Source of the DNA: an uncultured bacterium | GTDB taxonomy: Bacteria > Muiribacteriota > Ozemobacteria > Ozemobacterales > Ozemobacteraceae | Direction of reading: 5' to 3' | Assembly: GCA_964554555.1 (NCBI GenBank) | Contig: CAZKPI010000001.1 | Span: 4,178 to 38,350, forward strand | DNA length: 34,173 nt | In this document: piece by piece, positions 4,486 through 34,173 of the stretch | How positions within the stretch are numbered: position 1 is the stretch's first letter | How the letters are laid out: every line of letters begins with the position of its first letter | Program-made: the position numbers and the translations under genes | The notes under the pieces: model-generated | Seen by the model: only the letters and a program-made list of their open reading frames with translations | What the model was told of the DNA's origin: nothing | Database searches by the model: none

Positions 4486-6951
4486 ATGCCGCCAGGACAC
4501 CCCAACGCCATCCTCGCAGGACCTCTCCCCTGGAAACCACCCTCCAGGAAGGGATTCGTCCTCGGAATCGCCGTCCTGGTCATGGCTGTCCTGACCATCC
4601 TGATTTTCTCCTTCAGCCGGATCGCCCGGAGCCAGGCTGTGGAGACCCACCACCACCTCTTGACCAAGACCGCCGATCTCCTGGCCCGTTCGGCCATGGA
4701 GATCGTGGTTTCCCGCCTGGGCAGTGGATTCGAGGACACCCTCCTGCGCGAGGCGGCCGCTCTGTATGAGCCCTCCCGCACCCCCGGCCAACCGATTTCC
4801 GTCGGAGAGACCCTGGCCGACGAACTCCGACGGGACCTGAATGTTTTTTTCGGACAGTGCGAAGAGATCCATCCTCTCCCCGGCCTGGACCGCGAGCCTC
4901 CCACCTGCACCCAAGTAAAGATCGAGTTCCAACCCAAACAGCCATTGATTCCCAATTTCCAGGCGGGTCTGGCACGGGATCCTGTGGAAAAGTGGGGAGA
5001 ATTCACCGTTTCCTGTTCGGTCTCCTACCACGGCTTAACCCGCCAGGGAACGGCCGGCCGCCGGTTCTTCCTGGTCAGCATGGTCCCTGGCCCCTACTGC
5101 CGGTTCACCCTGTTTGCCCCCTTCACCCCCTGGGAGTTCTCCTACAATGCGCTCGGGGTGGACAGCGCCGGGAACGTCGATACCACGTATGTTCACCCTT
5201 GGCCCAGACCCATCGCCTTTTCCGGCCCCCTGATCCTGAAGAATGCCACCAGCCCCCAAGCCGTTCCCGCCCCTGATGACGCCCGGGACCTGGAGAATCA
5301 CGGCTGGGTCTTTCTGGGCCCCGCCCCCAAAAAAGGCGAGTCCACCCGCTCGGAGCCGGTGTTCCTGAAACTCCCCGAGGGCTATCACCCGGTTACGGGC
5401 GGGAACTTCCATTACAAGCTTCCTCCCCTGGAAGTCGGTCCCCAAAAAATCCAGGTTCTTCCTCCCGAGAGGGTCGTCGACCCTGAGAACCTGGTTTCCC
5501 CAGAGGAAAAGGGGTTTTCCGAATTCAGCTGGGGAACGCGCTATCAGGGCTTCTTCACCAACTACATGGGAGACCGGGCCGGAGCTCATAGTCTCCTGCT
5601 GTGGGACGTTCTCACCGGCCCCCGCTGGCTGTGCGCCTCCTCCTGGCTCATGCCCTACGGGAACGGGGAGTTCCCCTCGCGCACCCTGATCGTCGGCCCC
5701 GTCCTGGCGGGCTATCTGAAACTGTATTTCATCAAGGGCCAGTTCCCGGACGGCAAAAAATACGCTGGCATCATCCGGGGGGTTCCCGTCCAGGAGGCCT
5801 ACGACTCACGGAAAAGAATCGACACCATCCCCCAATATGTCCTTCCCGTCGACTTTCTCTACAACTCGCTCTTCAAAAAACCCACCACCACCCCCATCGG
5901 ATGGGACAGCTTCCAGAAAGTCTACCCGTATTCCTCCATTCCCCATCCCCGAAAAATGGGACCGCTCGAACACCCCGTGGCCTTCAACCGATACTTCGAT
6001 TTTATGAAATACGAGGCCGGCACCAACCCGGACAAGCCACTGCCCCCAATGGATGAACAGCCGTCTCTGGCCGGCACCGTCTACGATGACAAGCCGCGCT
6101 GTGTGCCCTGCGCCTCCCGCATGCGGACGCCCCAGCTTGCCCAGGTCAAGGGCCTTCATCCCTCCGAAAACGTCAAGATCATGCTCCCCAAACGCAAGGG
6201 AGTCCCGGATACGGACAACGATGCGATCTTCTTCCATGGGTCCCTGAAAGAGTACGATATCCAAAATCACAAGAAAGAAGGATTGTACTACCGGGTCACC
6301 CATGTCATCGACTTGTCCGAGATCGATCCCGGAAAGGAGCAGGCCAGGTTCCAGGACGAGGTGTTCCGCCCCGCCACCCCCGACGACCCCTGCCCTGCCG
6401 GCTCTTGGATACCCAAGCGGTCAGGGATCATCGCCGTCCTTCGCCGGACGGCCGGCGACCTTCCCCCCTTGGAATTCCCCGGAAAGATCTTCGTAAACAG
6501 GTCCATGGTCCTGCTGATCCCGAAGGGGGACGTCGTGATTCCCGCCACCATTACCACAGGCACGCCCCCGCGTCTCCAGAATCTGTTCTCCCTCATCCTG
6601 GCCGGCGGCGATATCAGGCTCGGGCCCGAGGTGGAGGAGATCCATGGCTATCTCGCCGCCCTCCGGCCGGGGCCAGGCTTCCAAGCCGGCGGGGGCCGGA
6701 TCCTGTCGGTGGCTCCTCCCCATCCCAAGCCGCTCGCCATCGTTGGCGGGCTGGCCGCCTGGGAAATGGGTCTGTATTACGAGGCCGGCCAAGACCCCCG
6801 ATCCGTCGGCACCACCATGGAGCATTTCCCGCAAGGCGGAACGATAACGTATAATGGATATCTCAACCCAGCTTCCCCACTGTATCACCGCTCCCTTACC
6901 CTGATCTATGAGGATCAACCATGGACGGTAACCTTCTCCGGAGGATCCTGA
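4486..6951 (+). CDS. Large N-terminally anchored protein, cassette 1 (821 aa); unrecognised family, GspK/PilY1-position analogue
   Basis: The N-terminus RKGFVLGIAVLVMAVLTILIF is pilin-like but lacks Glu+5. It is strongly similar to 14464-17004 and 32731-34173: LVSMVPGPYCRFTLFAPFTPW, GWVFLGPAP, TGGNFHYKLPP, CASSWLMPYGNGEFPSRTLIVGPVLAGYLK, AFNRYFDFMKY, GTTMEHFPQGGTITYN. Confidence 0.85.
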   Translation: MPPGHPNAILAGPLPWKPPSRKGFVLGIAVLVMAVLTILIFSFSRIARSQAVETHHHLLTKTADLLARSAMEIVVSRLGSGFEDTLLREAAALYEPSRTPGQPISVGETLADELRRDLNVFFGQCEEIHPLPGLDREPPTCTQVKIEFQPKQPLIPNFQAGLARDPVEKWGEFTVSCSVSYHGLTRQGTAGRRFFLVSMVPGPYCRFTLFAPFTPWEFSYNALGVDSAGNVDTTYVHPWPRPIAFSGPLILKNATSPQAVPAPDDARDLENHGWVFLGPAPKKGESTRSEPVFLKLPEGYHPVTGGNFHYKLPPLEVGPQKIQVLPPERVVDPENLVSPEEKGFSEFSWGTRYQGFFTNYMGDRAGAHSLLLWDVLTGPRWLCASSWLMPYGNGEFPSRTLIVGPVLAGYLKLYFIKGQFPDGKKYAGIIRGVPVQEAYDSRKRIDTIPQYVLPVDFLYNSLFKKPTTTPIGWDSFQKVYPYSSIPHPRKMGPLEHPVAFNRYFDFMKYEAGTNPDKPLPPMDEQPSLAGTVYDDKPRCVPCASRMRTPQLAQVKGLHPSENVKIMLPKRKGVPDTDNDAIFFHGSLKEYDIQNHKKEGLYYRVTHVIDLSEIDPGKEQARFQDEVFRPATPDDPCPAGSWIPKRSGIIAVLRRTAGDLPPLEFPGKIFVNRSMVLLIPKGDVVIPATITTGTPPRLQNLFSLILAGGDIRLGPEVEEIHGYLAALRPGPGFQAGGGRILSVAPPHPKPLAIVGGLAAWEMGLYYEAGQDPRSVGTTMEHFPQGGTITYNGYLNPASPLYHRSLTLIYEDQPWTVTFSGGS

Positions 6952-7502
6952 CCCCTCGACGTCCCCCAAAACCGGGAGGCGTCTCGATGGTGGAGATCAT
7001 GGTCACCCTCACGGTCATCGGTTTGGCCATCGCCCCTTTGTTCGGCCTTCTCAACGTCTCCAGCCAGCAGACCCAGACCTCGATGTCTTTCTTCCTGGCG
7101 GCCCAATATGCCGACGAGATAGCCCAACAACTGTTCCAGCTCGGCCCGGTCATCCCCCAGATCGTGGCCGAGGCCGCCTCGGGCACCACTGGCCTGGCCC
7201 CCGGCTTCCTCGATCTCCTGTCCGACAAGGAGTTCCTCCAGGACTTCCAGCAGGCTGATCAGTTTTTTCGGCTGGTCCCCTTCCGCCACCAGGGCAAAAA
7301 GCTCCAGGCCTACCTGGTCCTCTCCCCCCTGGAAGGCCATTTCCTGGAAAGGTATCTGGTCATCTCCCGAATCGATGCCTCCAAAACCACCCACCTGGGA
7401 ACCGGCCAGCACATCAAAATCGACATCTGCCTTTCCTGGAGGGATGCCCCTTCCAGGCCGATCCAGAAGGCCGCCTTCCCGATCATCCTGAAATTGTCAT
7501 GA
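6921..7502 (+). CDS. Pseudopilin (prepilin-type signal), GspI-size class, cassette 1 (193 aa)
   Basis: KPGG|VSMVEIMVTLTVIGLAIAPLFGLL has E at +5. Paralogues are 13883-14467 and 32207-32734 (QTSMSFFLAAQYADEIAQQL vs ANVSMYYLLAMHYADEMAQQL). It overlaps the 821-aa gene by 31 nt. Confidence 0.8.
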   Translation: MDGNLLRRILTPRRPPKPGGVSMVEIMVTLTVIGLAIAPLFGLLNVSSQQTQTSMSFFLAAQYADEIAQQLFQLGPVIPQIVAEAASGTTGLAPGFLDLLSDKEFLQDFQQADQFFRLVPFRHQGKKLQAYLVLSPLEGHFLERYLVISRIDASKTTHLGTGQHIKIDICLSWRDAPSRPIQKAAFPIILKLS

Positions 7503-8152
7503 CCCGGTTCCAGACCGCCCGCCACGCCCCCCCCCGGGGCTTCACCCTTCCCGAGGTGGTCTTTGTTGTCCTGTTGGCCTCCCTCGTCGCCAGCATCATC
7601 TCCAATGTGTTCTTTCAGGGGTTCCGTCAGACCGCCAAGGGAACCGACCGCCTGGATTCCATCCGGGCCTTCTCCCTGCTGGCCGAGGCGATCCGGAAGG
7701 ATGTCGCCAACTCCCTCAAGATCACTCCCCCCCCCACCGAACTGTACCCCGAAGAATTGTTGATTCCGGGTGATGTCGAGATGGCTTCCTCCCTCGGTGT
7801 GGATCTGTCAGAGGGTGGAAAGGTGGAGTATTCCATGGTCCCGGGAACCGCTTCCAAAGCCTCGTCCATCCAACGGGTCCAAAGAAACCCTTTGGGCGAG
7901 ACCGTCTCGCAAAAGTTGTTTGCCGCCGGCCGCACCAGATCTTTCAAGGTCCTCCATCTCGTGAAAAGGGTCAACGTGGGGGGATTGGCGCAGGAGTTGG
8001 ACCACGTCCTGGTCCAGATCGACCTCGACTCCCAGGACCCACGGTTCCCCGCCAACACCCTGACCTTCTTCCATGTCTTCGTGAGCGACCGCCTGCCGGG
8101 GTCCTCCTGGAACGACCGCAGCCGGGTTCTCCCTCCCCTGTCCGAACCTTGA
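7499..8152 (+). CDS. Pseudopilin (prepilin-type signal), GspJ-size class, cassette 1 (217 aa)
   Basis: PPRG|FTLPEVVFVVLLASLVASII has E at +5. It has an ATGA overlap with the upstream gene at 7499-7502. Paralogues are 13221-13886 and 30137-30832 (AKGTDRLDSIRAFSLLAEAIRKDVANS vs VKGKDRLDSIRAVTILLARMKEDLANC; DSQDPRFPANTL vs DTNDPRFPGSRL). Confidence 0.85.
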   Translation: MTRFQTARHAPPRGFTLPEVVFVVLLASLVASIISNVFFQGFRQTAKGTDRLDSIRAFSLLAEAIRKDVANSLKITPPPTELYPEELLIPGDVEMASSLGVDLSEGGKVEYSMVPGTASKASSIQRVQRNPLGETVSQKLFAAGRTRSFKVLHLVKRVNVGGLAQELDHVLVQIDLDSQDPRFPANTLTFFHVFVSDRLPGSSWNDRSRVLPPLSEP

Positions 8153-9999: not shown

Positions 10000-11412
10000 T
10001 CACGGGGTGGCGGCTCCACCCCTTCCCCACCGGGATTTGATGAACAGTTCGATCTTGGCCATGTCTTCATCAAGAACCCGGCAAATCAGTTCCAGGGTGG
10101 GATACCTCTGAATGAGATCCCGGACCTTTCCCAGGGTGTCCCGCTCATGGGAAAGAAACCGATGCAGTGCGGGATCACGACCAACCGAACGGGCCCGGAG
10201 ACCATCGAGGAACTCCTCGTACTCAGCGATCCCCTTTGGATGGGTCTGCATGACCGCCAACACCCGGAACAGGTCCAGGAGACGGAACAGGTCTTCGTAA
10301 TTCCGCTTCAACCCGACCTCGGCAATAATCTCCGGATCGAGGAGGCGCAGTCCAGTGGCCCTTCCGTAGATGAGGCCAGACACAAAGTTCTCCCGGGCCG
10401 TTCGCAGTTGCCGGATGCCCCGGCCGACAAGAGAGCTTCGGGGCCAGAGGACGGGCCCCAGATGATCCTGGTCAAATTTCCCAATGGCCTCGATCGCCAG
10501 CGGCTCGAGATTGAACAACACGAAGAAGGAATACCGGGAGACCTCCAGGTATTTCTCCATCAGTTCCTCATAGTAGGCGTGTCGAACGGAGGGCGGTTCC
10601 TTGCCCATGGCCGTCCGTTTGGCCTCCAAGGCCTGGATCTCCTTCAGAAGGGCTCCGATGCCGGTCGTGCCGAGAAAGATCCGCATGACATAGTTCACTT
10701 TGCCGAGGGCCGCCAACAATTGGGGATCAGCCCCATGGGCGGCGGCGAGGTCGGCCAGAGAGCGGGTGTCATCCTCGAAGAAATCCCGGCACGTCTCCTT
10801 CTCGACGATCCCCTCATCGAGCTTCATGGCCAGATCGACCTGCTTGGGGCCGACCGGAGAGGCGAACAGGCACGGCAGGCGATAGTATCCCGCCCCCGTC
10901 CTCGCCGGCCAGGACCACTCGACCCCAGCCAGCCACAGATGGCGGTTTTCCCCCGGGTCGGCCGGCGGGGCTTCCCTGGTGGCCACGACCTTTACCTGAA
11001 AGGATGCCACCTGCAAAAACAACGGCATCATCCCGCGATCGATTCCCCCATCAATTCTGGGATCGATCTGCCGCCAGGGTTCCCGCCGGTCCTCGAGGGA
11101 AGAGAAAAAGACCGAGGCCCCTTCGGTGATCCGGCTGGAGGTGGACCCCGCCTGGTCGATCCCGAGGATGGGAAATCCTGCCACGGGATCGATCAGGTTC
11201 TCCTGGGTGAGGTCCTGCATCACCTTCTGGGACAGGACGATGGCGGTGAAGTGTTCGGCGCTGAAGGCCAGCTCACGGCGGGTCGATTGCATCAGCCGGG
11301 AAAAGATGGTCCCCACCATGGCCACGACAAACAATCCGATCAGGATCTCGAGCAGGGACAGACCCTGGCTCCAATCCCGGCGGGCATGGCCGCGCTCCCT
11401 TCGTCGGGTCAT
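10000..11412 (-). CDS. Oversized pseudopilin-like protein with a prepilin-type signal peptide, 470 aa (last gene of the minus-strand array)
   Basis: ATG 11412 forms an ATGA overlap with the stop of the 405-aa gene. MTRRRERGHARRDWSQG|LSLLEILIGLFVVAMVGTIFSRLM has E at +5. It is a paralogue of 226-1674. The track ORF extension to 11598 would overlap the upstream gene by 190 nt, so I rejected it. Confidence 0.8.
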   Translation of the reverse strand: MTRRRERGHARRDWSQGLSLLEILIGLFVVAMVGTIFSRLMQSTRRELAFSAEHFTAIVLSQKVMQDLTQENLIDPVAGFPILGIDQAGSTSSRITEGASVFFSSLEDRREPWRQIDPRIDGGIDRGMMPLFLQVASFQVKVVATREAPPADPGENRHLWLAGVEWSWPARTGAGYYRLPCLFASPVGPKQVDLAMKLDEGIVEKETCRDFFEDDTRSLADLAAAHGADPQLLAALGKVNYVMRIFLGTTGIGALLKEIQALEAKRTAMGKEPPSVRHAYYEELMEKYLEVSRYSFFVLFNLEPLAIEAIGKFDQDHLGPVLWPRSSLVGRGIRQLRTARENFVSGLIYGRATGLRLLDPEIIAEVGLKRNYEDLFRLLDLFRVLAVMQTHPKGIAEYEEFLDGLRARSVGRDPALHRFLSHERDTLGKVRDLIQRYPTLELICRVLDEDMAKIELFIKSRWGRGGAATP

Positions 11413-12626
11413 TCCATCTCCACTCGCTTGACCTTCAGCTCGGTAAACTGGCTTCCCGCAAAGGTGATCCGGATCTCGTTCTTCTGGCCATCCTCGAAGG
11501 CATCCGCCGGAAGGACGAAATCCTGGAAGGCGGAAGTATTGGCGATCAGCTTGTCTGTCCAGTAGGGGGTGCCATTGATCGACAGGTTGATCCGGCATTG
11601 GGATTCCCCACTGCCATCCGGGGCGGCAGCCATCGTCAGCTTCACGTCATGTTTGTTGGGAACGCGAAAGACCCCAAACGAGTCCGACTCGGACATCCGG
11701 AAATATGGGCCAAGCGCGGGATCGCCCGAATACAGGGCGAAATTCTTGCCATCGGCGCCCATCCCTCCTCCGGCCGTGGGCGGGAAGGTGGTCAAATCGA
11801 CAAACCCCGCGGGAGGCGGAACCGCCGGCGGGGGGGTGGGCGGACTTGCCACCGCGGGCGGAGCGGAGGGTGGATCCGGCGGGTCAGGGACGGCGGGGGG
11901 CGGAGGGGCAGGAGGGTCGGGCAGGGACGGGGCCCCGGGAGTCCGGGCCCCGACCAGATCGATGATGTCCTGGACCTTGGCGGCGGCAGCAATCCTCTTC
12001 CGCTTGTCCGCCGCTTTTGGGCGATTGGCGGCCCGGGTGGCCAGCACCTGGTTCACCCGGGTGCGCATGCTCCCGGACGATCCGACCGGCATGTGGTACG
12101 GTTCGAAGGAACCAAAAAAGAGGGTCCGGATCCGGTTTCCGATATCAAGAATGTCATCGCGAACAGCCACCCGCCACAAGTAGAGTCGGGAAAATCCCAG
12201 GAAACTGGACCGGATGTAGATGTCCGCCTGCCGGGCCTTGCCGGAGTCCTCCACGAAACTATCATACTCCCCGCCGAACAGGGGCACCCCGTTCTCCTGG
12301 ACGGGCCCGTCCTTGAAATACCGGTCGGCCCAGGGCCGGAGGTAGATCCGGGCCAGGATCCGCGAATAGGCCGAATAGGCGATGGTGAAGGTCATTTCCC
12401 GTTTGTTGACCAGCTCGACCTGTCCACGATAACTCCGATTCAGGCCCGTGAAGGTGACCACCATGAACCCCACCACCACCGCCGCCAGGATGGCCAGGGG
12501 AAGGACCAGACCCCGACGCGGCAGGACCCGGCACAGGCCGCTGGGATACCCGGGCCGGCGCTTCCGGCGACACGCGTTGGCGGGCTCCCTCGGAGCCATC
12601 GCAGGCATTCGTCCGTTACTCCACAT
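11409..12626 (-). CDS. Membrane-anchored protein with a proline-rich linker and a C-terminal beta-rich domain (405 aa), GspK/PilX-like N-terminus
   Basis: Basic leader plus RRGLVLPLAILAAVVVGFMVVTF, with no Glu+5. The linker is PGAPSLPDPPAPPPPAVPDPPDPPSAPPAVASPPTPPPAVPPPAG. The C-terminal domain of about 130 aa ends NEIRITFAGSQFTELKVKRVEME. ATG confirmed at 12626; alternative ATGs at 12608 and 12599. Confidence 0.7.
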   Translation of the reverse strand: MWSNGRMPAMAPREPANACRRKRRPGYPSGLCRVLPRRGLVLPLAILAAVVVGFMVVTFTGLNRSYRGQVELVNKREMTFTIAYSAYSRILARIYLRPWADRYFKDGPVQENGVPLFGGEYDSFVEDSGKARQADIYIRSSFLGFSRLYLWRVAVRDDILDIGNRIRTLFFGSFEPYHMPVGSSGSMRTRVNQVLATRAANRPKAADKRKRIAAAAKVQDIIDLVGARTPGAPSLPDPPAPPPPAVPDPPDPPSAPPAVASPPTPPPAVPPPAGFVDLTTFPPTAGGGMGADGKNFALYSGDPALGPYFRMSESDSFGVFRVPNKHDVKLTMAAAPDGSGESQCRINLSINGTPYWTDKLIANTSAFQDFVLPADAFEDGQKNEIRITFAGSQFTELKVKRVEME

Positions 12627-13197
12627 CGGTCAGGTTCATCAGGCCCACATGGGTCAGAAACTGGTAACTGCTGTGCGCGTTGGCCACGGTTGCATTGACC
12701 AGCACCCCGAAGGGACTGACGCAGGTGAACGTCAGGCGCTCGAGCGAATCAGCCAGCACCTTCTCGGCGGTTGGGTCATGTCGGCCGAGATGGCGGTCGG
12801 TGTAGAAAACCAGCCGGTACAGCTTCTTCTTCGTCGACTTGGAGTGGGCCACGTCGTCTTCGAGATACAGCAGGCAGATGTTGTTCTCCGCATCGGTGCA
12901 GGCCAGGAAGTTGGTGGTCTCCCCCGGGGTCGGCCGAAGCACTTCGCTCCCTTCACGAAGATGCTCAACGATCTGGTCGGCCGCTTTCCGGGATTCCATC
13001 TGCAAGACCAGCCGGTTGGTCAATTGCCGCTCGGTGGAATGGAACAGGGTGGTGGAAAACCGCACGGCCAGGGCAAGCACGAAGGACAGGATGGCGGCAC
13101 CGACCATCATTTCGACCAGGGTGAACGCCCGGGAATGGTGAGGTGTCATATCTCTCTCTACTGTCCAACGGTCGAAAGGGTTTACCCTTCTCGACAT
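12616..13197 (-). CDS. Pseudopilin (prepilin-type signal, Ala at -1), 193 aa; candidate major subunit of cassette 2
   Basis: HHSRA|FTLVEMMVGAAILSFVLALAVRF has E at +5. The start is ATG 13197 (24-aa leader, consistent with the long leaders of the other pseudopilins here) or ATG 13149 (8-aa leader). It has no counterpart in cassettes 1 or 3. Confidence 0.8.
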   Translation of the reverse strand: MSRRVNPFDRWTVERDMTPHHSRAFTLVEMMVGAAILSFVLALAVRFSTTLFHSTERQLTNRLVLQMESRKAADQIVEHLREGSEVLRPTPGETTNFLACTDAENNICLLYLEDDVAHSKSTKKKLYRLVFYTDRHLGRHDPTAEKVLADSLERLTFTCVSPFGVLVNATVANAHSSYQFLTHVGLMNLTDVE

Positions 13198-13220: not shown

Positions 13221-13886
13221 TCACGGAGGAGGCGAGGTCAGGACGGGCCAGTCGGTCCCGGGCAGGCGGTTGGGCACCAGAACATGCCGGAAATTCAGTC
13301 GACTGCCGGGGAACCGCGGATCATTGGTATCGAGAACCAGATTCAGAAAAACCAGGTCGGCCGCCAGGGGGACCGTCCCGGCACGGAAGGCCCGGACGGC
13401 ATGGCAGAGTTCGAACGTCCGAATCCGGGGAATGCCAAACCGTTCCGACTGCCGCCCGCTTTCGGGCGATTCCACGATTCGCTCAACCCAGGAGCTTCCA
13501 CCCCCGGGTGCCTGTTCCTGGCGATAGGTGACCCGCCGCTTCCCCGTCTGAAAGGTCAATTGGGGGGAAAACACCGCCTCGTCGGGAAGCTGGTCTTCTT
13601 CCTCATACAGAATCAGCGGCGGACCTGTTCCCTGGATGGCGGTGCAATTGGCCAGGTCCTCCTTCATCCGGGCCAACAGAATGGTCACGGCCCGGATCGA
13701 GTCAAGCCGATCCTTCCCTTTTACCGTGGTACGGACCCCGTGCGAGAAGAAGGCAAAGAGGGTCAACAGAACCATCGACACCAGGCAGACGACGATGACG
13801 ATCTCCGGGAAGGTGAACCCGGCCGGCGGGGGTCTTCTTCCCGGGAATCTCTGAGCCTGACCTGACCCGGTGACTCCTGCGGTCAT
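13221..13886 (-). CDS. Pseudopilin (prepilin-type signal), GspJ-size class, cassette 2 (221 aa)
   Basis: PPPAG|FTFPEIVIVVCLVSMVLLTLFAFF has E at +5. It has an ATGA overlap at 13883-13886. It is a paralogue of 7499-8152 and 30137-30832. Confidence 0.85.
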   Translation of the reverse strand: MTAGVTGSGQAQRFPGRRPPPAGFTFPEIVIVVCLVSMVLLTLFAFFSHGVRTTVKGKDRLDSIRAVTILLARMKEDLANCTAIQGTGPPLILYEEEDQLPDEAVFSPQLTFQTGKRRVTYRQEQAPGGGSSWVERIVESPESGRQSERFGIPRIRTFELCHAVRAFRAGTVPLAADLVFLNLVLDTNDPRFPGSRLNFRHVLVPNRLPGTDWPVLTSPPP

Positions 13887-14467
13887 GGGGCGCCCATGAG
13901 GATCGGGAAAACGGCCGTCTTTGCCCCGCCATCAGGTGTTTCCTTCCAGGACAGGACGAGATTGATCTTCAGGGCAGGGGGAACGGCCAGCAGTTCGACC
14001 TGATCGGAGGCCAGCGCCTCAACCTTGATGGTGCGGCCAATGAAATGCTCGTCCAGGGGTGAAACCGCCAGGAATCCTTCCAGGGGCTTTCCGGCATACC
14101 GGAACCGGATCACCCGGAAAGTGGAGGCGGGAGCCTGCAGTTCCGCCAGGAAGGTTGGGTCGGTCAACACTTCGGCCAGGGTCGGAATGCGGCCGGTGTT
14201 GGAATCCCGGGCCGCCGCCAGGAGTTGATCGAGATGGGGAGCAAGCCGCTGAAGCTGTTGGGCCATCTCGTCGGCATAGTGCATGGCCAGCAGGTAGTAC
14301 ATCGAGACATTGGCTTTCTGGTTCGACGAACTCAGCATCCCCACGAGGGGCCCAAGAACAAGCCCCAGCAGGAAAAGGGCAACCATCACCTCGACCACGG
14401 TCACCGCCCGATAGGCTCGCCGCCTGAGGATCCCAACGCCGCCACGGCATTTCTCGGGCGGGGTCAT
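13883..14467 (-). CDS. Pseudopilin (prepilin-type signal, Ala at -1), GspI-size class, cassette 2 (194 aa)
   Basis: RRRAYRA|VTVVEVMVALFLLGLVLGPLVGML has E at +5. It has an ATGA overlap at 14464-14467 with the 846-aa gene. It is a paralogue of 6921-7502 and 32207-32734. Confidence 0.8.
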   Translation of the reverse strand: MTPPEKCRGGVGILRRRAYRAVTVVEVMVALFLLGLVLGPLVGMLSSSNQKANVSMYYLLAMHYADEMAQQLQRLAPHLDQLLAAARDSNTGRIPTLAEVLTDPTFLAELQAPASTFRVIRFRYAGKPLEGFLAVSPLDEHFIGRTIKVEALASDQVELLAVPPALKINLVLSWKETPDGGAKTAVFPILMGAP

Positions 14468-20757: not shown

Positions 20758-20760
20758 GCT

Positions 20761-22701: not shown

Positions 22702-22729
22702 CCCAATCCCCTGTCACCCCTCCAGACCG

Positions 22730-23077
22730 TCAGTTCATCACCTGCCGAACAGCCGTGGCCCGATCCGGAGTCACCTGGGCATACATCGTCAAACCCACCG
22801 AGGAAAAACAGGCCATCACCGTGTTGGCGGCGGCACAGAAGCACAATTTGAGATCCGGCATCGACAAAGTCTTCGACACGATATCGATCAGCTCGCCCAG
22901 GGCGGCCGAACTGACCAGGGGACAGGCGGCCAGGTCGAACACCAGGCGCCGGGCGCCCTGGCCCACCAGATCCTCGACCCGAGCCCGGACCTGCTTACCC
23001 GCCTCGAGGTCGAGGTATCCCTGCAATCCCAGAATGACCACCTGCCCCTCATGCTGGACCGAAAGTGAGAATGCCAT
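22730..23077 (-). CDS. STAS-domain protein (anti-sigma-factor-antagonist type, SpoIIAA/RsbV-like), 115 aa
   Basis: AGGAGG lies 7 nt upstream of ATG 23077. The fold pattern VVILGLQGYLDLEAGKQVRARVEDLV...RRLVFDLAACPLVSSAALGELIDIV has the Ser-Ser at the position of the phosphorylatable Ser in SpoIIAA/RsbV. It is a paralogue of 25786-26133. Confidence 0.85.
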   Translation of the reverse strand: MAFSLSVQHEGQVVILGLQGYLDLEAGKQVRARVEDLVGQGARRLVFDLAACPLVSSAALGELIDIVSKTLSMPDLKLCFCAAANTVMACFSSVGLTMYAQVTPDRATAVRQVMN

Positions 23078-30136: not shown

Positions 30137-30832
30137 TCAACGGGAAGGCGGAACGAACGGCAGGTCCACCGGTTGCCACCGGACGGAGGACCGGGAGGAC
30201 GTGGGAAGGACCACCGACAAGGGAAAGGTCGCGGCGGGAACGGTGGGATCATCCGACCCCACAACCAGCGATATGTGGAGAAACTCCTGCCGGCAAGGCG
30301 CGGCCTGGGGGTGAACTCTTTGATCGCGAAAGAAAGGGAAGACCCGAAACATCTTGATGCGGTCACCTCCGAACTCCAACGGAGATTCGGTCACTCCATC
30401 GATCACCGCCTCCCGGATCACCCGCAGCCTCTCACCCTGGCGCCGCAGGGAATAGGTGACCGTGGCGGCTTCCCCGTGAAAACAGACCGATTCGGCAACC
30501 GATCCCGCATCGACTTCCCCGGGACGAAACACTCCGATCTCGCCTGGGGCAACCGCCTCCTGGCCGGCCCCCACGGTCACCGCCTGGCTCCGCAGGAGAT
30601 CCTGGTGGAGGGACCGCCAAAGACGTGCCGCGGCGGCAATCGCATCGAGCCGATCGACTCCATGGGCGGAACTGCGAACCAGACTGGAATACAATTTCTG
30701 GACCCCCATCAACAGCAAGGCGGCCAAGACCAGACTGACCAGGACTTCCACCAGCGTAAACCCACGGGAAAACCCCCGGAAGACGGAAAGGCAGGATCCG
30801 GCTCCACTCGGTTGCCTCACACCCCCGGTCAT
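30137..30832 (-). CDS. Pseudopilin (prepilin-type signal), GspJ-size class, cassette 3 (231 aa)
   Basis: GFSRG|FTLVEVLVSLVLAALLLMGVQKLY has E at +5. AHGVDRLDAIAAAARLWRSLHQDLLRS aligns with the 217- and 221-aa paralogues. The start overlaps the upstream stop (TAATG at 30832). Confidence 0.85.
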   Translation of the reverse strand: MTGGVRQPSGAGSCLSVFRGFSRGFTLVEVLVSLVLAALLLMGVQKLYSSLVRSSAHGVDRLDAIAAAARLWRSLHQDLLRSQAVTVGAGQEAVAPGEIGVFRPGEVDAGSVAESVCFHGEAATVTYSLRRQGERLRVIREAVIDGVTESPLEFGGDRIKMFRVFPFFRDQRVHPQAAPCRQEFLHISLVVGSDDPTVPAATFPLSVVLPTSSRSSVRWQPVDLPFVPPSR

Positions 30833-32040
30833 TACTGGAATCCCTCGAGCAAGGAGGCAGGTGAACTGCCAACCGTCGCTGGCCGCCCGGGAAGGATACG
30901 GGTCGGAGGATCCTCGGAGGGGGCTGATCCGGCAGATTCGGCCGGTTGAACGTTGTCAGAGGGTTCTGTCCACAAGGTGTCGAGAGGGTTGCCCATCCCG
31001 GGATCGACAGACGGTTCGGAAGGTTCGGCAGAACCAGGCTCTTCTGGCTCCCCGCCAGCAGAAGCGCTGGCTGTTTTCACGAGACGGCCAGGCTCCGGCG
31101 AGGTCTTGACCGCGGCCGTTGCCCCATCGACCCCGATGGCGTCCAAGGAGGCGGAAGGCGGAGTGGCAAGAGCGGCGGCCGGGGGACGGGGGACGGCAGG
31201 CCGGCGCCCAAGAGTGCCGGAAAGGCCGATGAGAAGGTGCTCGCCGGCGGCGACCTGGCGTTCCTCACCACGGGCGAGGGTCAGGACCCGGACCCGGCCC
31301 TCGAAGACTTCGACCAGGGTTCCCGTGGCTGGGGAAACCCCCACCTGGAAAACCGTGCCCATCGCGGCAATGGCTGTCTGCGGGGTTTCCAGCCGAAACG
31401 CGGTCCCGGGGCGGGTGATCCGGACCAGCATGGTTCCCGCGAGAAGATGGACGGCATCAGCGGCAAGCCGGAAGGTACCTTCCCACGCTTCGAGGACCAC
31501 CGCTTCCCCCAAGGCGAGCCGGGCATGCCCAGCCTGGAGGGTTCCCAGTCCGGCGGGAATGACCGCCATCCGGCCGAGATCTGCCCCGCCTGCGCTCACC
31601 GCCCCATCCAGGAGGCGAGCCACAATGGGAGGGGAGGAGGGAGACACCGGAGGGGCCACCGGGAGGGTGGGAGTGGCCGGCTCCGATGCAGGTTGGACCG
31701 TTTTGGAGGCCACCCCTGAGGACGGAAGTGACCGGAAGGGTCCCAGGGCCAGCCCAAGGCCCAGCATGGCGAGAACGGCCCCCCCAATCAGGATTGGCGC
31801 CCAGGGAACCCATGGAATGGGCGAGGCCGGAGAAGGAGCCGGGGTGGTGTTGGTGGGCAGGGAAACCGGAGGAACCGGGGGCAAGAGGTCGAGGGTGACC
31901 TCCACCCAGGTTCCCAGTTGGCCTTCGAGCCGGGCCACCTGCTCGAGACAGTCCCGGCATTCCGGGCATTCCCGGGCGTGTTGCCGGTCTTCCGGGGTGG
32001 GCCGGAGAGGGCGGTCCTGGGTGAGGAGCCGTTCTCTCAT
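30832..32040 (-). CDS. Anti-sigma-factor-like membrane protein: N-terminal zf-HC2 motif, one TM helix, periplasmic FecR-like domain (402 aa from ATG 32040)
   Basis: MRERLLTQDRPLRPTPEDRQHARECPECRDCLEQ contains H-x3-C-x2-C. The TM helix is WAPILIGGAVLAMLGLGLALG. The FecR-like block is FRLETPQTAIAAMGTVFQVGVSPATGTLVEVFEGRVRVL. The C-terminal tail is acidic and P/S-rich. The track ORF extends to 32190, so the start is uncertain (no clear SD at 32040). Confidence 0.7.
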   Translation of the reverse strand: MRERLLTQDRPLRPTPEDRQHARECPECRDCLEQVARLEGQLGTWVEVTLDLLPPVPPVSLPTNTTPAPSPASPIPWVPWAPILIGGAVLAMLGLGLALGPFRSLPSSGVASKTVQPASEPATPTLPVAPPVSPSSPPIVARLLDGAVSAGGADLGRMAVIPAGLGTLQAGHARLALGEAVVLEAWEGTFRLAADAVHLLAGTMLVRITRPGTAFRLETPQTAIAAMGTVFQVGVSPATGTLVEVFEGRVRVLTLARGEERQVAAGEHLLIGLSGTLGRRPAVPRPPAAALATPPSASLDAIGVDGATAAVKTSPEPGRLVKTASASAGGEPEEPGSAEPSEPSVDPGMGNPLDTLWTEPSDNVQPAESAGSAPSEDPPTRILPGRPATVGSSPASLLEGFQ

Positions 32041-32206
32041 CTGACCAACTCTGGGACAACTCACTCCTGCTTCCTGCCTTCCTGAAGGGACTCCGTAAAC
32101 TTTGGAGGCCAGCCCTCGCGGTTGGGTTCCAATTGCATGCCATAGGATTCTACCTGAACCGTGCCCAAAAGGTTGGGAGGAACCCTCCAAGAATTTTCCA
32201 TCGGGC

Positions 32207-32734
32207 TTAGCCCTCCCTGATCAGCATCCGGAATATCGCCCGGTGCTCGACCGGGTCCTGGGGGCTCAGCCGCCAACCGATGATCACCCGAACCCCCCAG
32301 ATGGTTCCCCCCTTGAGAACTTGCAGTCCCGAATCGTCAAGCTGAGCCCCGACCTCGATCCGGCGGGTGGTGAAGTGAGGGTCGAGGGGGGAGACGAACA
32401 AGGCCAGATCGGTTCCCGGAAGCCTGATTCCTTTGAGTTCGGGAGCCGTGGACACCCATTGGAGGTCAGCGCTCACCGCCTCATCCTCGAGCAGGAGTTT
32501 CAAAGTCCTCCCCGATGCAGCCAGGGCAGGAAGAAATGGACTCAGACGGCGCACCTGCGAGAGGATTTCCCACCCATATTGCCCGGCCATGACTTCGTAT
32601 CCTGAAGCTTTGCCCACCCTTTGAGAACCGGTCATCAGGTGGGCAAGAGGCAACAGAAGGAATGAAAGGATGATGATTCCCATCAGAATCTCGATCAGAC
32701 TCAACCCGATCCGGAAGCGAGCCCTCCCCATCAC
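32207..32734 (-). CDS. Pseudopilin (prepilin-type signal), GspI-size class, cassette 3 (about 174 aa)
   Basis: RFRIG|LSLIEILMGIIILSFLLLPLAHLM has E at +5. Position 32734 is a GTG and ATG 32731 follows immediately; either one overlaps the stop of the upstream large gene. It is a paralogue of the 193- and 194-aa pseudopilins. Confidence 0.8.
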   Translation of the reverse strand: MMGRARFRIGLSLIEILMGIIILSFLLLPLAHLMTGSQRVGKASGYEVMAGQYGWEILSQVRRLSPFLPALAASGRTLKLLLEDEAVSADLQWVSTAPELKGIRLPGTDLALFVSPLDPHFTTRRIEVGAQLDDSGLQVLKGGTIWGVRVIIGWRLSPQDPVEHRAIFRMLIREG

Positions 32735-34173
32735 TCGCCCGCTCCCGACAGCACGAGAGTCCGGTCTTCCGGGCTCACCAGGAAGGCCCGGCTTTCCTCA
32801 TAGGAAGGAGAACCGGGGTTGAACCGCGGATTGTATTCGATCGTTCCGCCTTTGGGAAACTCGGTCTGGGTCGTCGGCAAGGCCTGGCCGGGAAAGACCC
32901 CCAGACTGCGGACGGCCGCCCCTCCCAGAATATGGAAGGATGGACATCCGCCCCCCCCCAACAGCCTGCCGCCGGCTCCATCCACCGACGGGTGGAGGGC
33001 CACCAGATACGCCGCAACCGGCTGGTCCGTGGTCACCCGGACATTCCCCTCCAGGGCCGCGAGGGTCAGCAAATGGTCGGGTTCGGACCCTTCCCCTCCC
33101 CCGGAGATGGCCGCAGGCACGACCAAATCGCCGCGGTCGATCAGCAGGAGGAGATGGCGGTCTAGCTCGAGAGGCTTTGCCGGAAGCGCCAAAGGTTCCC
33201 GCCCCGCCCCCTTCCTCCGGATGAGATAAACCATCCCCCCCAACCGGGGTCGCATCATATCCGGATGATCGGCAAAGACCAGCTCATGGAAGGTTCGGGC
33301 TTCCTCTTCGGGGGTGGAGCAATCGGAAAGATCGACAACCGTTGAAACCCGCAGGGGTATGTTCCCGGGGTGTTGGGCATCAAATGACACCCGGGCCAAG
33401 TCTCCCTTGAAATAGACATCCTCCGGATCGGTCCCACCAGCCTTGAAACGTATCTCCACCCGTTCGTGGGAAACCAGCCCAGGGATGTCCTGATACCGCG
33501 TTTGAGAACCGGAAGGACCGAAATAGGGATCTCCATTCCCGGCAAAAGACGGAACCCCCACACGAGGGAGCGGATACCCCATGCTCTTCGTCCGGGAATA
33601 ATCCATGAACTCAAAGAACAGATTGAAGGCAACACCCTCGGACTTCCCCACCTGCGGTTGGTCCACAGCGTAGTTTCTCGGCAAGACCAGCCGGTGACTC
33701 TCGCTTTTTTTCAGGAAGAAGTCCCCATAGGTGAGCTTGGGTGAAGCAAGGAGGGGAAGATCATCCTGATACGGATCGGGAGGGAAAAGGGTGGCCCAGG
33801 CCTGGGCCGGAAGGGGATCGGACAAGGCATAGGCCTTGAGATAACCCGCCAAAACCGGCCCGAACACGACGGTCCGGCTCGGGTTCCGGTGGTCGCCATA
33901 GGGGAACAACCACGTGGAAGCGCACTTCCAGACGGGATCGGAAGGTTGCAGGCCTGCCCAAAGCTGGTTGGCCCGGGCATCGACAAAAAAACCCACATGT
34001 TGAATCAGGATCTGCAGGTTCAATCCTTTCCACGTCGTCGGAAAATGAGTGGGGTCCGCCAACTCTTCCAAGGGCACGATCGATTTCCCTTCCTTGTTGG
34101 CATCTGGCGGCAACGCAAAATGGAAATTCCCTCCCGTATCAGGGGAAGAGCGTCGTGTAGGGAAAGAGTGTAG
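32731..34173 (-). CDS. Large protein of the 821/846-aa family, cassette 3; 5' end lies beyond the window (C-terminal about 480 aa present)
   Basis: The track ORF begins at a TTG (34113), but I translated the frame upstream to the window edge. It stays open: LHSFPTRRSSPDTGGNFHFALPPDANK. This aligns with TGGNFHYKLPP and TGGQFHFHLPP about 300 aa into the paralogues. Further shared blocks are CASTWLFPYGDHRNPSRTVVFGPVLAGYLK, AFNLFFEFMDY and FPKGGTIEYNPRFNPGSPSY. Confidence 0.85.
   Translation of the reverse strand, partial: LHSFPTRRSSPDTGGNFHFALPPDANKEGKSIVPLEELADPTHFPTTWKGLNLQILIQHVGFFVDARANQLWAGLQPSDPVWKCASTWLFPYGDHRNPSRTVVFGPVLAGYLKAYALSDPLPAQAWATLFPPDPYQDDLPLLASPKLTYGDFFLKKSESHRLVLPRNYAVDQPQVGKSEGVAFNLFFEFMDYSRTKSMGYPLPRVGVPSFAGNGDPYFGPSGSQTRYQDIPGLVSHERVEIRFKAGGTDPEDVYFKGDLARVSFDAQHPGNIPLRVSTVVDLSDCSTPEEEARTFHELVFADHPDMMRPRLGGMVYLIRRKGAGREPLALPAKPLELDRHLLLLIDRGDLVVPAAISGGGEGSEPDHLLTLAALEGNVRVTTDQPVAAYLVALHPSVDGAGGRLLGGGGCPSFHILGGAAVRSLGVFPGQALPTTQTEFPKGGTIEYNPRFNPGSPSYEESRAFLVSPEDRTLVLSGAGE

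What the first reader, a model, noticed from the sequence alone, without database searches (positions are those of the whole stretch)
4486..34173. One cassette (giant N-anchored protein + two pseudopilins) occurs three times in 34 kb
The three gene triads are 4486-6951 / 6921-7502 / 7499-8152 (+), 17004-14464 / 14467-13883 / 13886-13221 (-), and 34173-32731 / 32734-32207 / 30832-30137 (-). They are collinear, and each position is paralogous at the protein level. The large proteins share long identical blocks. The first pseudopilins share the motif YADE[IM]AQQL. The second pseudopilins share G.DRLD[SA]I and DPRFP. Within each triad the genes are translationally coupled. This layout resembles the minor-pilin plus large-tip-protein sets that prime type IV filaments, such as GspH-K in T2SS and the multiple minor-pilin/PilY1 sets described in Myxococcus. 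The large component here is not a family I recognise. Three divergent copies suggest interchangeable tip or priming complexes with different specificities. One caveat applies: some lineages, for example PVC-group bacteria, are known for large expansions of prepilin-motif proteins, so multiplicity alone is not unprecedented.
Basis: partly seen in the sequence, partly recalled or inferred. Interest (0 to 1): 0.85.

Follow-up and report, generated by a model that had tools for sequence, protein, structure and literature searches.

The report
Three giant-cap pilin gene sets
A Riflebacteria-type genome fragment carries three old copies of a three-gene set (a giant pilin-like protein plus two small pilins) that most likely builds alternative tips for type IV filaments; the concept is known, but this protein family has not been described.

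Summary
The three triads sit at the stated coordinates, and each gene position is paralogous (large proteins E=0 to 1e-47, small ones 1e-40 to 4e-6). Triad 3 is cut by a contig end carrying Illumina adapter and is split by an anti-sigma/FecR gene.

The order Large-pp1-pp2 recurs in about 40 loci from Candidatus Riflebacteria genomes, with up to 7 copies per genome. It also recurs in more distant relatives, including Candidatus Wallbacteria. The three window copies are ancient paralogs: each has a closer counterpart in another genome.

pp1 and pp2 carry canonical prepilin signals, with G/A at -1 and Glu5 (Asp in one pp1) in every sequence. The 800-850 aa protein has the same leader and helix but never Glu5, which is the GspK trait. 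Its model shows a 60-residue N-terminal helix followed by a beta-sheet. Its best, though non-significant, structural matches are all ComZ, a giant GspK-like tip pilin.

The most likely reading is alternative, separately regulated GspK/I/J-like tip complexes. The large subunit is not PilY1, a GspK family member or a Verru_Chthon cassette protein.

Not shown: assignment of pp1/pp2 to GspI/GspJ, subunit interaction, and presence of an assembly machinery. I rate it a new variant of a known kind, of moderate interest.

The parts
4486..6951 (+). Large-1: 821-aa giant pilin-class protein. Leader ...SRKG|FVLGI has no Glu5, as in GspK and ComZ.
   Evidence: ORF. 43% identical to Large-2. 63% identical to its counterpart in L004. 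No Pfam or NCBIfam family. N-terminal statistics.
6921..7502 (+). pp1-1: 193-aa prepilin, G|VSMVE.
7499..8152 (+). pp2-1: 217-aa prepilin, G|FTLPE.
   Evidence: TIGR02532 scores 21.7 bits, above its cut-off. Also.
14464..17004 (-). Large-2: 846-aa giant pilin-class protein, G|FILWV, no Glu5.
   Evidence: AF2 model: helix 29-88 plus strands 147-205 plus a beta-rich C-terminus. Top Foldseek hits are ComZ 6qvi. Homologs found.
13883..14467 (-). pp1-2: 194-aa prepilin, A|VTVVE. 4-nt overlap with Large-2.
13221..13886 (-). pp2-2: 221-aa prepilin, G|FTFPE. 4-nt overlap with pp1-2.
   Evidence: AF2 model: helix 26-80 plus 9 strands. Also.
32731..34143 (-). Large-3: C-terminal ~470 aa only, truncated by the contig end. 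Bases 34144-34171 are Illumina adapter.
   Evidence: Best counterpart is L026.
32207..32734 (-). pp1-3: 175-aa prepilin, G|LSLIE.
30137..30832 (-). pp2-3: 231-aa prepilin, G|FTLVE.
   Evidence: N_methyl 28.3 bits, above cut-off. Also.
30832..32190 (-). Anti-sigma-like protein (CxxC zinc finger plus FecR domain) inserted between pp1-3 and pp2-3. It probably starts at Met51.
   Evidence: FecR E=1e-6. Matches the anti-sigma family found beside triads elsewhere, E=4e-22. Same insertion in L026.
12616..13197 (-). pp3: a further prepilin (A|FTLVE), directly downstream of triad 2.
   Evidence: N_methyl 29.5 bits. 60% identical homolog beside the triad in L002.
11409..12626 (-). 405-aa N-anchored protein, G|LVLPL, no Glu5 (same leader type as the Large proteins). 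Proline-rich middle region.
   Evidence: No Pfam or NCBIfam family.
10000..11412 (-). ~470-aa prepilin-like protein, G|LSLLE. Likely start at Met63 of the listed ORF.
   Evidence: Paralog of 226-1674, E=1e-27.
226..1674 (-). 482-aa prepilin-like protein, G|FSLVE. Paralog of 10000-11412.
   Evidence: N_methyl 21.7 bits..
17008..18114 (-). Accessory protein directly upstream of Large-2. Member of a ~273-aa family found beside triads in 19 other loci.
18122..20020 (-). K/E-rich 632-aa exported protein upstream of triad 2. Paralog of 1913-3709 (+), which lies upstream of triad 1.
   Evidence: The triad-1 copy (1913-3709) has a counterpart in L004. In L002 a 581-aa gene occupies the same position but gave no significant match to the window proteins.
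20017..23077 (-). Regulatory block upstream of triad 2: FecR protein (20017-20757), CHASE2-SpoIIE/PP2C phosphatase (20761-22701) and STAS protein (22730-23077).
   Evidence: Pfam. Same order in L002/L003.

Best explanation
Each triad most likely encodes the tip (priming) complex of a type IV filament, either a pilus or a T2SS-like pseudopilus.

Proposed mechanism:
1. pp1 and pp2 are ordinary minor pilins, cleaved after G/A by a prepilin peptidase encoded elsewhere.
2. The 800-850 aa protein is a giant GspK/ComZ-class cap pilin. It has the same leader and hydrophobic alpha1 helix but no Glu5, as expected for the top subunit, which has no partner above it to neutralise.
3. Its remaining ~650 residues form a bulky distal module displayed at the filament tip. 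This module would set what the filament binds.
4. The three proteins assemble through their N-terminal helices in the inner membrane and nucleate polymerisation of a major pilin.
5. The several divergent triads per genome are alternative tips. Each is wired to its own regulators: ECF sigma with a FecR-type anti-sigma, or a STAS / CHASE2-PP2C partner switch.

Shown here: the pilin-class signals and their strict conservation, the conserved gene order, the multiple copies per genome, the co-divergence of the three genes, and the predicted pilin-like N-terminal fold.

Inferred: cleavage, assembly, tip position, ligand specificity and conditional expression.
For: Paralogy and coordinates.

Class III signal statistics over the loci:
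- pp1: G/A at -1 in 43/43, Glu or Asp at +5 in 43/43.
- pp2: G/A at -1 in 41/41, Phe at +1 in 40/41, Glu5 in 41/41.
- Large: Gly at -1 in 42/46, never Glu at +5 (V/I/L/M in 43/46).

Structure:
- AF2 model of Large-2 (pLDDT 75.9, pTM 0.79) has a 60-residue N-terminal helix followed by long antiparallel strands.
- Its three best PDB matches are all chains of ComZ, the giant tip pilin of Thermus (E 7e-3 to 3e-2). ComZ is GspK-like and carries a domain inserted into the pilin fold (PMC6561018).
- The pp2 model has helix 26-80 followed by a beta-sheet.

Sequence links to GspK and PilX:
- Among E. coli GspG-K, the Large profile aligns best with GspK.
- A distant family member hits NCBIfam T2SS_GspK at its N-terminus, E=3.4e-5.
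- Another is named 'PilX N-terminal domain-containing' by UniRef.

Conservation of the unit:
- Large-pp1-pp2 in that order in about 40 of 44 Riflebacteria loci.
- A Large-like gene followed by two small genes in more distant relatives. At least one of the small genes carries an N_methyl hit in three of these four loci; none is on record for L050.
- Up to 7 loci per genome.
- Each window triad has a consistent best counterpart elsewhere for all three genes, and pairwise identities correlate with rho 0.80-0.86.

Established knowledge:
- The GspK-I-J trimer caps pseudopili.
- Modular pilins are widespread and are expected at filament tips (PMC8179133).
- PilI-J-K complexes license assembly, and large K-like proteins supply the last beta-strand in cis (PMC13533445).
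Against: - No PilB/GspE-type Walker motif was found in the window or in the flanks of the first 47 fetched loci; the one motif hit is a SIR2-HerA ATPase. The called genes of the four more distant loci also show no Pfam hit to an ATPase, platform protein, secretin or prepilin peptidase. Such genes were not otherwise searched for in the flanks, and whether these genomes encode a machinery could not be checked.
- The ComZ match is not statistically significant, and TM-scores are low.
- The pp2 model has no pilin match in the PDB.
- The hhalign assignment of pp1 to GspI and pp2 to GspJ is not specific, because GspG scores nearly as well.
- Several pp1/pp2 score below the Pfam N_methyl cut-off.
- No major pilin gene is evident next to the triads.
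- Some lineages hold large expansions of prepilin-motif proteins that are not known to form filaments.
Confidence: 0.6

Rival explanations
1. The triads form membrane-anchored envelope complexes, not filaments. The prepilin-like N-termini serve only as inner-membrane anchors or targeting signals. The three proteins form a periplasmic or surface complex, possibly a sensor feeding the adjacent FecR-type anti-sigma / ECF sigma pair. This would resemble the unexplained prepilin-motif expansions and 'Verru_Chthon' cassettes of PVC bacteria.
For: - No Type IV filament machinery gene was seen near any of the loci examined.
- ECF sigma and FecR-type anti-sigma genes recur next to the triads: sigma in 22 loci, anti-sigma in 18, plus L048 and L050.
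- A faint N-terminal similarity to Verru_Chthon cassette protein A.
Against: - Glu5 (Asp in one pp1) is retained in all 84 pp1/pp2 sequences, and it is systematically absent only from the large subunit. That is the pattern expected for subunits that stack in a filament under a cap, and it would not be needed for a mere anchor.
- Minor-pilin gene sets commonly lie away from the machinery genes (general knowledge of fimU-pilVWXY1E and similar clusters).
- Scores against the Verru_Chthon models are far below cut-off.
Confidence: 0.2
2. The triads are substrate-specific T2SS pseudopilus tips. Each triad is a cargo-recognition tip that pushes out particular neighbouring exported proteins, such as the K/E-rich 600-aa proteins, the C11 peptidase, and the dockerin-like 585-aa protein found in other loci.
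For: - Exported proteins are encoded directly beside the triads: 1913-3709, 18122-20020 and 8430-9866 in the window, and a 585-aa family downstream of the triad in 23 loci.
- The weak best matches are to T2SS pseudopilins.
Against: - No GspD/E/F/L/M genes were seen in any flank.
- The neighbouring exported proteins differ between triads.
- An 800-aa cap may be too bulky to pass a secretin-enclosed pseudopilus (my own inference, untested).
- This is a sub-case of the best explanation rather than a true alternative.
Confidence: 0.12
3. The triads form competence-pilus DNA receptors like ComZ-PilA2 of Thermus. The large subunit would bind DNA at the pilus tip.
For: ComZ is the top structural match. 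ComZ also works with an adjacent small pilin (PMC6561018).
Against: - The match is weak and covers mainly the pilin part.
- Five to seven divergent copies per genome, each with ECF or partner-switch regulators, are hard to reconcile with a single DNA-uptake function.
- No competence genes were seen nearby.
Confidence: 0.05

Closest known systems
GspK-GspI-GspJ pseudopilus tip of type II secretion systems, and the PilX/PilV/PilW or PilK/I/J equivalents of type IVa pili
   Same: - Three adjacent, translationally coupled pilin-class genes.
- Two have canonical G|FxxxE signals.
- One larger subunit lacks Glu5.
- Weak best profile matches: Large to GspK, and pp2 to GspJ.
   Different: - The gene order is K-I-J rather than (H-)I-J-K.
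- The cap is 800-850 aa, against ~330 aa for GspK.
- No hit to the T2SSK, GspI or GspJ models above cut-off.
- Not embedded in a gsp or pil operon.
- 5-7 copies per genome.
ComZ-PilA2 of Thermus thermophilus (PDB 6qvi; PMC6561018)
   Same: - A giant pilin with a GspK-like pilin domain and a large extra beta-rich module.
- Proposed to sit only at the tip.
- Encoded next to a small partner pilin.
- Top Foldseek match of the Large model.
   Different: - The match is non-significant (E about 7e-3, TM 0.17-0.26).
- No sequence similarity.
- ComZ is single-copy and dedicated to DNA uptake.
- The Large proteins are ~300 aa longer.
The three minor-pilin/PilY1 gene sets of Myxococcus xanthus (PMC7541494)
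   Same: Several alternative gene sets for tip or priming complexes in one genome.
   Different: - There the large tip protein, PilY1, is a non-pilin beta-propeller protein carried by four minor pilins.
- Here the large protein is itself pilin-class, gave no hit to any Pfam model (so none to a PilY1/PilC model), and has only two small pilins with it.
Modular pilins such as PilB and PilC of Streptococcus sanguinis (PMC8179133, PMC9934059)
   Same: A pilin module fused to a bulky functional module, expected to be tip-exposed. The concept is already known to be widespread.
   Different: The extra module here matches no known domain, and the subunit lacks Glu5.
Verru_Chthon cassette (NCBIfam TIGR02600 with TIGR02596, TIGR02598 and TIGR02599). 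Its description as a multi-copy cassette of one very large protein plus small prepilin-motif proteins is from my memory of the TIGRFAMs entries.
   Same: The same kind of architecture, with many copies per genome, in an environmental lineage.
   Different: Scores are far below cut-off (7.7 vs 332 bits for A; 15 vs 256 bits for C, and only for pp3). The lineage is different. No literature was found.

Membership tests
Type IV pilin class (class III signal peptide; PF07963 / TIGR02532) | Short basic leader ending in Gly/Ala, hydrophobic +1, Glu at +5, then ~20 hydrophobic residues. | tested here: met
   pp1: 43/43 G/A at -1 and 43/43 E/D at +5. pp2: 41/41 G/A at -1 and 41/41 Glu5. HMM scores are above cut-off for pp2-1 (TIGR02532), pp2-3, pp3 and 226-1674, and just below for the others.
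Type IV pilin class | Long N-terminal alpha1 helix packed on an antiparallel beta-sheet. | tested here: inconclusive
   The secondary structure of the AF2 models fits: Large has helix 29-88 plus strands 147-205, and pp2 has helix 26-80 plus 9 strands. Foldseek gives no significant pilin hit for pp2.
Type IV pilin class | Cleavage and N-methylation by a prepilin peptidase, and assembly by a PilB/GspE-PilC/GspF machinery. | not testable with these tools
   No PilB/GspE-type Walker motif in the window or in the flanks of the first 47 loci.
GspK / PilX-class cap minor pilin | Pilin-like leader and helix, but no Glu5. | tested here: met
   0/46 Large sequences have Glu at +5. Gly at -1 in 42/46.
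GspK / PilX-class cap minor pilin | Match to family models (Pfam T2SSK / PilX_N; NCBIfam T2SS_GspK). | tested here: not met
   No hit for any window protein or any of the 17 aligned members at E<=1. Only a distant relative, P0049, hits T2SS_GspK, at 23.5 bits vs a cut-off of 130. hhalign vs E. coli GspK gives probability 8-11%.
GspK / PilX-class cap minor pilin | GspK-like fold with a domain inserted in the pilin beta-sheet and the last strand returning to the sheet. | tested here: inconclusive
   The top three PDB hits are ComZ (GspK-like), but E is 7e-3 to 3e-2 and TM <=0.26.
GspI and GspJ (TIGR01707, TIGR01711; XpsI NF047828) | Family model match, or a specific profile match beyond the N-terminal helix. 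| tested here: inconclusive
   Model hits are all N-terminal and far below cut-off. hhalign: pp2 is best with GspJ (83 columns, E=8e-7), but GspG is nearly equal. pp1 has its longest alignment with GspI (98 columns) but not its best score.
PilY1 / PilC tip adhesin | C-terminal PilY1/PilC beta-propeller domain (Pfam Neisseria_PilC), and no pilin-like N-terminus. | tested here: not met
   No Pfam hit at E<=1 in any of 17 members. The protein has a pilin-like N-terminus.
Verru_Chthon cassette (TIGR02600 A; TIGR02596/8/9 B-D) | Scores above the NCBIfam cut-offs for the A protein and the small prepilin proteins. | tested here: not met
   Large-1 scores 7.7 bits vs 332.3. pp3 scores 15.1 vs 256.5 and 12.8 vs 70. 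pp1 and pp2 have no hit.
ComZ-type competence tip pilin | Beta-solenoid inserted in a GspK-like pilin domain, and DNA binding. | tested here: inconclusive
   Best but non-significant structural match. No sequence match to any PDB chain. DNA binding is not testable here.

The most novel reading that the evidence does not exclude
The triads may be filament tips that double as sensors. Ligand binding or mechanical load at the giant cap would be relayed to the FecR-type anti-sigma factor encoded beside it (in triad 3, inside the triad). That would release an ECF sigma factor. Each of the 5-7 triads per genome would then be a separate 'pilus-tip surface-signalling' channel. This wiring is conserved from Riflebacteria to Wallbacteria-like lineages and has no described precedent.
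Probability: 0.12. Interest if true: 0.8.

Novelty: new variant of a known kind. Interest (0 to 1): 0.5.

Why it matters
If correct, this defines an unannotated family of giant cap pilins with two dedicated partner pilins.
- There are about 370 clusters at 50% identity, and no Pfam or NCBIfam model.
- The family is expanded to several copies per genome in a candidate phylum known mainly for its unknown genes.
- It would add a natural 'library' of interchangeable filament tips. That would help test how GspK/PilK-type caps license assembly and how tips set specificity.
- The recurrent link to ECF sigma/anti-sigma pairs suggests how such tips are chosen, or what they report.
- In practice, gene callers that start Large-1 at Met33 remove the pilin signal, so automated annotation hides the relationship.

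Tried and rejected
- Pfam and NCBIfam on all window proteins and on all 17 Large homologs found nothing for the large proteins.
- Profile searches of PDB sequences with the Large, pp1 and pp2 alignments gave only N-terminal helix similarity to pilins.
- Foldseek of the Large model against viral structures found nothing.
- Foldseek of the pp2 model against the PDB found no pilin and no significant hit.
Two further protein searches returned only 2-4 usable homologs, so pp2 was folded with 6 sequences.
- A search for PilB/GspE-type Walker motifs in the locus flanks gave one hit, which is a SIR2-HerA defence ATPase.
- The window's own contig could not be retrieved to see beyond the window.
- Literature searches for the Verru_Chthon cassette, and for Riflebacteria together with type IV pili, gave nothing relevant.
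- PilY1-like, Verru_Chthon and bona fide GspK membership were considered and rejected on model scores.
- Recent tandem duplication was rejected, because each triad has a closer counterpart in another genome.

Full report
**1. Observation**

The window has about 62% G+C and contains ORFs at exactly the coordinates given. BLASTP among the window's proteins confirms position-by-position paralogy.

| Pair | Result |
|---|---|
| Large-1 (4486-6951, +) vs Large-2 (14464-17004, -) | 43% identity over 828 aa, E=0 |
| Large-1 or Large-2 vs truncated Large-3 (32731-34173, -) | 30-32% identity, E about 1e-47 |
| pp1 pairs | E 3e-35 to 6e-15 |
| pp2 pairs | E 8e-40 to 1.5e-5 |

Junctions are 4-nt overlaps, except a 31-nt overlap between Large-1 and pp1-1.

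Three corrections apply:
- Triad 3 is interrupted by an anti-sigma-like gene with a zinc finger and a FecR domain (30832-32190).
- Large-3 is cut by a contig end. Bases 34144-34171 (-) are an exact 28-nt piece of the Illumina TruSeq adapter (the adapter identity is from my own knowledge).
- Two of the quoted motifs (YADE[IM]AQQL and DPRFP) occur in only two of the three copies.

**2. What the proteins are**

pp1 and pp2 have class III (prepilin) signal peptides. I extracted 43 pp1 and 41 pp2 sequences from the window and related loci.
- The residue before the predicted cleavage site is G or A in all of them.
- Position +5 is Glu in all but one, and Asp in that one.
- pp2 has Phe at +1 in 40 of 41.
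- A fully hydrophobic stretch follows.

HMM support is mixed. N_methyl/TIGR02532 scores are above cut-off for pp2-1, pp2-3, pp3 and the 482-aa protein, and slightly below for the others.

The large proteins match no Pfam or NCBIfam family, even when all 17 aligned homologs are scanned at E<=1. They match no PDB sequence either. Their N-terminus is nevertheless conserved and pilin-like: a basic residue, then G|F-x-L-G-V followed by ~20 hydrophobic residues. Gly is at -1 in 42/46 sequences, and Glu is never at +5. Lack of Glu5 is a hallmark of GspK.

The AlphaFold2 model of Large-2 has pLDDT 75.9 and pTM 0.79. It shows:
- a 60-residue N-terminal helix (29-88) followed by long antiparallel strands (147-205);
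- a poorly defined middle region;
- a confident beta-rich C-terminal third.

The three best PDB matches are all chains of ComZ from Thermus thermophilus (E 7e-3 to 3e-2, probability up to 0.75, low TM). ComZ is a giant pilin whose pilin domain is closest to GspK and carries an inserted beta-solenoid. On steric grounds it has been argued to sit only at the pilus tip together with the neighbouring pilin PilA2 (PMC6561018). The match is a lead, not proof.

Additional weak links point the same way:
- Among E. coli GspG-K, the Large profile aligns best with GspK (52 columns, E 4e-3, probability 8%).
- The distant family member P0049 hits NCBIfam T2SS_GspK at its N-terminus (E 3.4e-5, below cut-off).
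- Another, from Candidatus Wallbacteria, is named 'PilX N-terminal domain-containing' by UniRef.

The pp2 model (pLDDT 74.5) has a helix at 26-80 followed by nine strands. It has no significant PDB match and no pilin among its hits.

The hhalign comparisons do not settle subunit identity:
- pp2 scores best with GspJ (83 columns, E 8e-7), but GspG is nearly as good.
- pp1 gives its longest alignment with GspI (98 columns), but the score is not better than with GspG or GspJ.

So the pilin class is well supported, and the specific I/J identities are not.

**3. Distribution and conservation**

The word-indexed search found only 17 homologs of Large-2 among 5.8 billion proteins. The named ones come from Candidatus Riflebacteria. 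A scan of GTDB species representatives found 44 loci. Almost all are labelled Riflebacteria, Rifleibacteriota, Ozemobacteraceae or 'uncultured bacterium', and two carry other genus labels.
- One genome (CAYRYU01) has 7 loci.
- Another (JADFZL01) has 5.
- Several have 2.

In about 40 of these loci the large gene is followed, in the same order and mostly with 4-nt overlaps, by a pp1 and a pp2 homolog.

Each window triad has its best counterpart in another genome, consistently for all three genes:

| Window triad | Best counterpart | Identity (Large / pp1 / pp2) |
|---|---|---|
| Triad 1 | L004 | 63 / 55 / 53% |
| Triad 2 | L002 | 45 / 46 / 54% |
| Triad 3 | L026 | 35 / 46 / 37% |

L026 also shares the inserted anti-sigma gene. 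Across 41 triads, the pairwise identities of the three genes correlate with Spearman 0.80-0.86. The copies are therefore ancient paralogous units, not recent duplications.

An exhaustive HMM search of 1.84 billion cluster representatives found 367 proteins at E<=1e-3. About 48 are full-length close relatives. Many others are 650-900 aa proteins that match the N-terminal ~400 positions.

Four such distant members were looked up. Each is again followed by two small genes, and in three of the four loci at least one small gene has a recorded N_methyl hit; none is on record for L050:
- L048 (Wallbacteria): 783 aa + 159 aa (N_methyl) + 199 aa + ECF sigma + FecR.
- L050: 911 + 153 + 250 aa + ECF sigma + FecR.
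- L051: 826 + 214 + 364 aa (N_methyl).
- L052: 774 + 182 aa (N_methyl) + 316 aa.

**4. Surroundings**

Triad 2 lies in a long co-directional block on the minus strand:
- two paralogous HEAT-repeat proteins (E 1e-96);
- a STAS protein;
- a CHASE2-SpoIIE/PP2C phosphatase;
- a FecR protein;
- a K/E-rich exported protein;
- a 368-aa protein;
- then Large-2, pp1-2 and pp2-2;
- then three more pilin-class genes: pp3, a 405-aa protein with a Glu5-less leader, and a ~470-aa prepilin.

The upstream part has the same gene order in L002/L003, with sequence homology for all positions except the 581-aa gene that sits where the K/E-rich protein is.

Triad 1 is preceded by paralogs or counterparts of the K/E-rich protein and a ~200-aa protein, as in L004. 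It is followed by a clostripain-family (C11) peptidase.

In other Riflebacteria loci the triad is usually followed by these families:

| Family | Number of loci |
|---|---|
| 585-aa family (the L001 member has a Dockerin_1 hit and a faint EF-hand hit) | 23 |
| 273-aa family, homologous to window 17008-18114 | 19 |
| ECF sigma factor | 22 |
| Anti-sigma factor, homologous to window 30832-32190 and 20017-20757 | 18 |

A search for the PilB/GspE-type Walker motif found nothing in the window or in the flanks of the first 47 loci. The one motif hit is a SIR2-HerA ATPase. The called genes of the distant loci L048 and L050-L052 also show no Pfam hit to a secretion ATPase, platform protein, secretin or prepilin peptidase.

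**5. Mechanism**

The best-supported reading is that each triad encodes a GspK/I/J-like tip (priming) complex of a type IV filament.

The argument from the sequences runs as follows. Glu5 (Asp in one pp1) is kept in every pp1 and pp2, and it is missing only from the large subunit. In type IV filaments, Glu5 neutralises the N-terminal amine of a neighbouring subunit in the helix bundle. The top subunit, GspK, dispenses with it (established knowledge; GspK/I/J as tip is cited in PMC6561018 and PMC8179133).

A subunit with ~650 extra residues can hardly be accommodated anywhere except at the tip. This is the argument made for ComZ and for modular pilins in general.

Recent work proposes that a PilI-PilJ dimer recognises a folded PilK-type subunit to license assembly. 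It also proposes that large K-like proteins supply the final beta-strand in cis (PMC13533445). The confident C-terminal strands of the Large model would fit this, but I could not inspect their packing.

Multiple divergent triads, each with its own regulators, suggest conditionally expressed alternative tips. Cleavage, assembly, tip location, ligand and regulation are all inferred.

**6. Rivals**

- (a) Non-filament envelope complexes or sensors that use pilin-like anchors, coupled to the FecR/ECF pairs. The absence of nearby machinery and the regulatory neighbourhood favour this. The strict Glu5 pattern argues against it.
- (b) Cargo-specific T2SS pseudopilus tips. This is a sub-case of the main reading.
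- (c) ComZ-like DNA receptors. This is unlikely given 5-7 divergent, separately regulated copies per genome.

**7. Comparison and novelty**

In working terms the triads resemble GspK-I-J, ComZ-PilA2 and modular-pilin tips. In layout they resemble the multiple minor-pilin sets of Myxococcus (PMC7541494) and the Verru_Chthon cassettes.

Membership in the GspK, PilY1 and Verru_Chthon families was tested on model scores and not met.

Modular pilins are already known to be widespread and under-annotated (PMC8179133). Riflebacteria are known for the highest density of novel gene families per genome (PMC10849945). An unannotated phylum-rich family is therefore not in itself surprising.

I rate it a new variant of a known kind. 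It is a previously undescribed giant cap-pilin family with two dedicated partners, multi-copy, and recurrently linked to ECF sigma/anti-sigma genes. Interest is moderate, at 0.5.

The most novel reading not excluded is that the tips act as inputs to the adjacent anti-sigma/ECF pairs. I put its probability at about 0.12.

Noticed in passing
window 34144-34171 (- strand): Exact 28-nt match to the Illumina TruSeq universal adapter (ACACTCTTTCCCTACACGACGCTCTTCC) at the very end of the window. This is a contig end with untrimmed adapter. The first ~10 codons of the 'Large-3' ORF (LHSFPTRRSS) are artefact.
   Followed up: yes
window 10000-13197 (- strand) and 226-1674 (- strand): Four more pilin-class genes: pp3 (12616-13197), a 405-aa protein with a Glu5-less leader and a proline-rich middle (11409-12626), and two paralogous ~470-480-aa prepilins with a large helical C-terminal part (10000-11412 and 226-1674; E=1e-27). 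The window therefore holds 13 pilin-class genes in 34 kb.
   Followed up: partly
window 23120-25744 and 26234-28522 (- strand): Two paralogous HEAT-repeat proteins (34% identity, E=1e-96), each ending in a transmembrane segment plus a small C-terminal domain. Homologs sit beside triads in L002, L026, L046 and L047. Their role is unknown.
   Followed up: partly
window 20017-23077 (- strand): A partner-switching-type block (STAS protein, CHASE2-SpoIIE/PP2C phosphatase, FecR-domain protein) directly upstream of the triad-2 operon. It is conserved in the same order in L002/L003.
   Followed up: partly
window 1913-3709 (+) and 18122-20020 (-): Paralogous K/E-rich, coiled-coil-like exported proteins of ~600 aa, upstream of triads 1 and 2. 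They cause the strong AT-skew excursions in the composition profile. The triad-1 copy has a counterpart in L004.
   Followed up: partly
window 8430-9866 (+): Clostripain-family (Peptidase_C11, E=1e-45) exported protease immediately downstream of triad 1.
   Followed up: no
window 4486-4582 (+): The public gene call for Large-1 (P0004, 789 aa) starts at Met33. That removes the basic leader and half of the hydrophobic helix, and so hides the pilin-like signal.
   Followed up: yes
window 28521-30314 (+) and 28590-30179 (-): Two long ORFs lie on opposite strands. The minus-strand one has a signal-peptide-like start and P/T/S-rich linkers and looks real. The plus-strand one is R/G-rich and looks like a shadow ORF. 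No family hit for the minus-strand protein.
   Followed up: partly
L001, L013 and about 20 other loci, ~4.5-7 kb downstream of the large gene: In most Riflebacteria loci the triad is followed by a 585-aa family (its L001 member has a Dockerin_1 hit and a faint EF-hand hit), a 273-aa protein, an ECF sigma factor and its anti-sigma factor. The window has the anti-sigma and 273-aa homologs but no sigma factor.
   Followed up: partly
L035 2252-5168: A SIR2-domain protein plus a HerA-type ATPase (a defence-system-like pair), a few kb upstream of a divergent large-protein gene. That gene has no recognisable pp1/pp2 partners by phmmer.
   Followed up: partly
L048 7704-12352: In the Candidatus Wallbacteria locus a 766-aa gene with no Pfam hit lies immediately before the 783-aa Large-like gene. 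The two small genes, an ECF sigma factor and a FecR protein follow. I did not test whether the 766-aa protein belongs to the same family.
   Followed up: no
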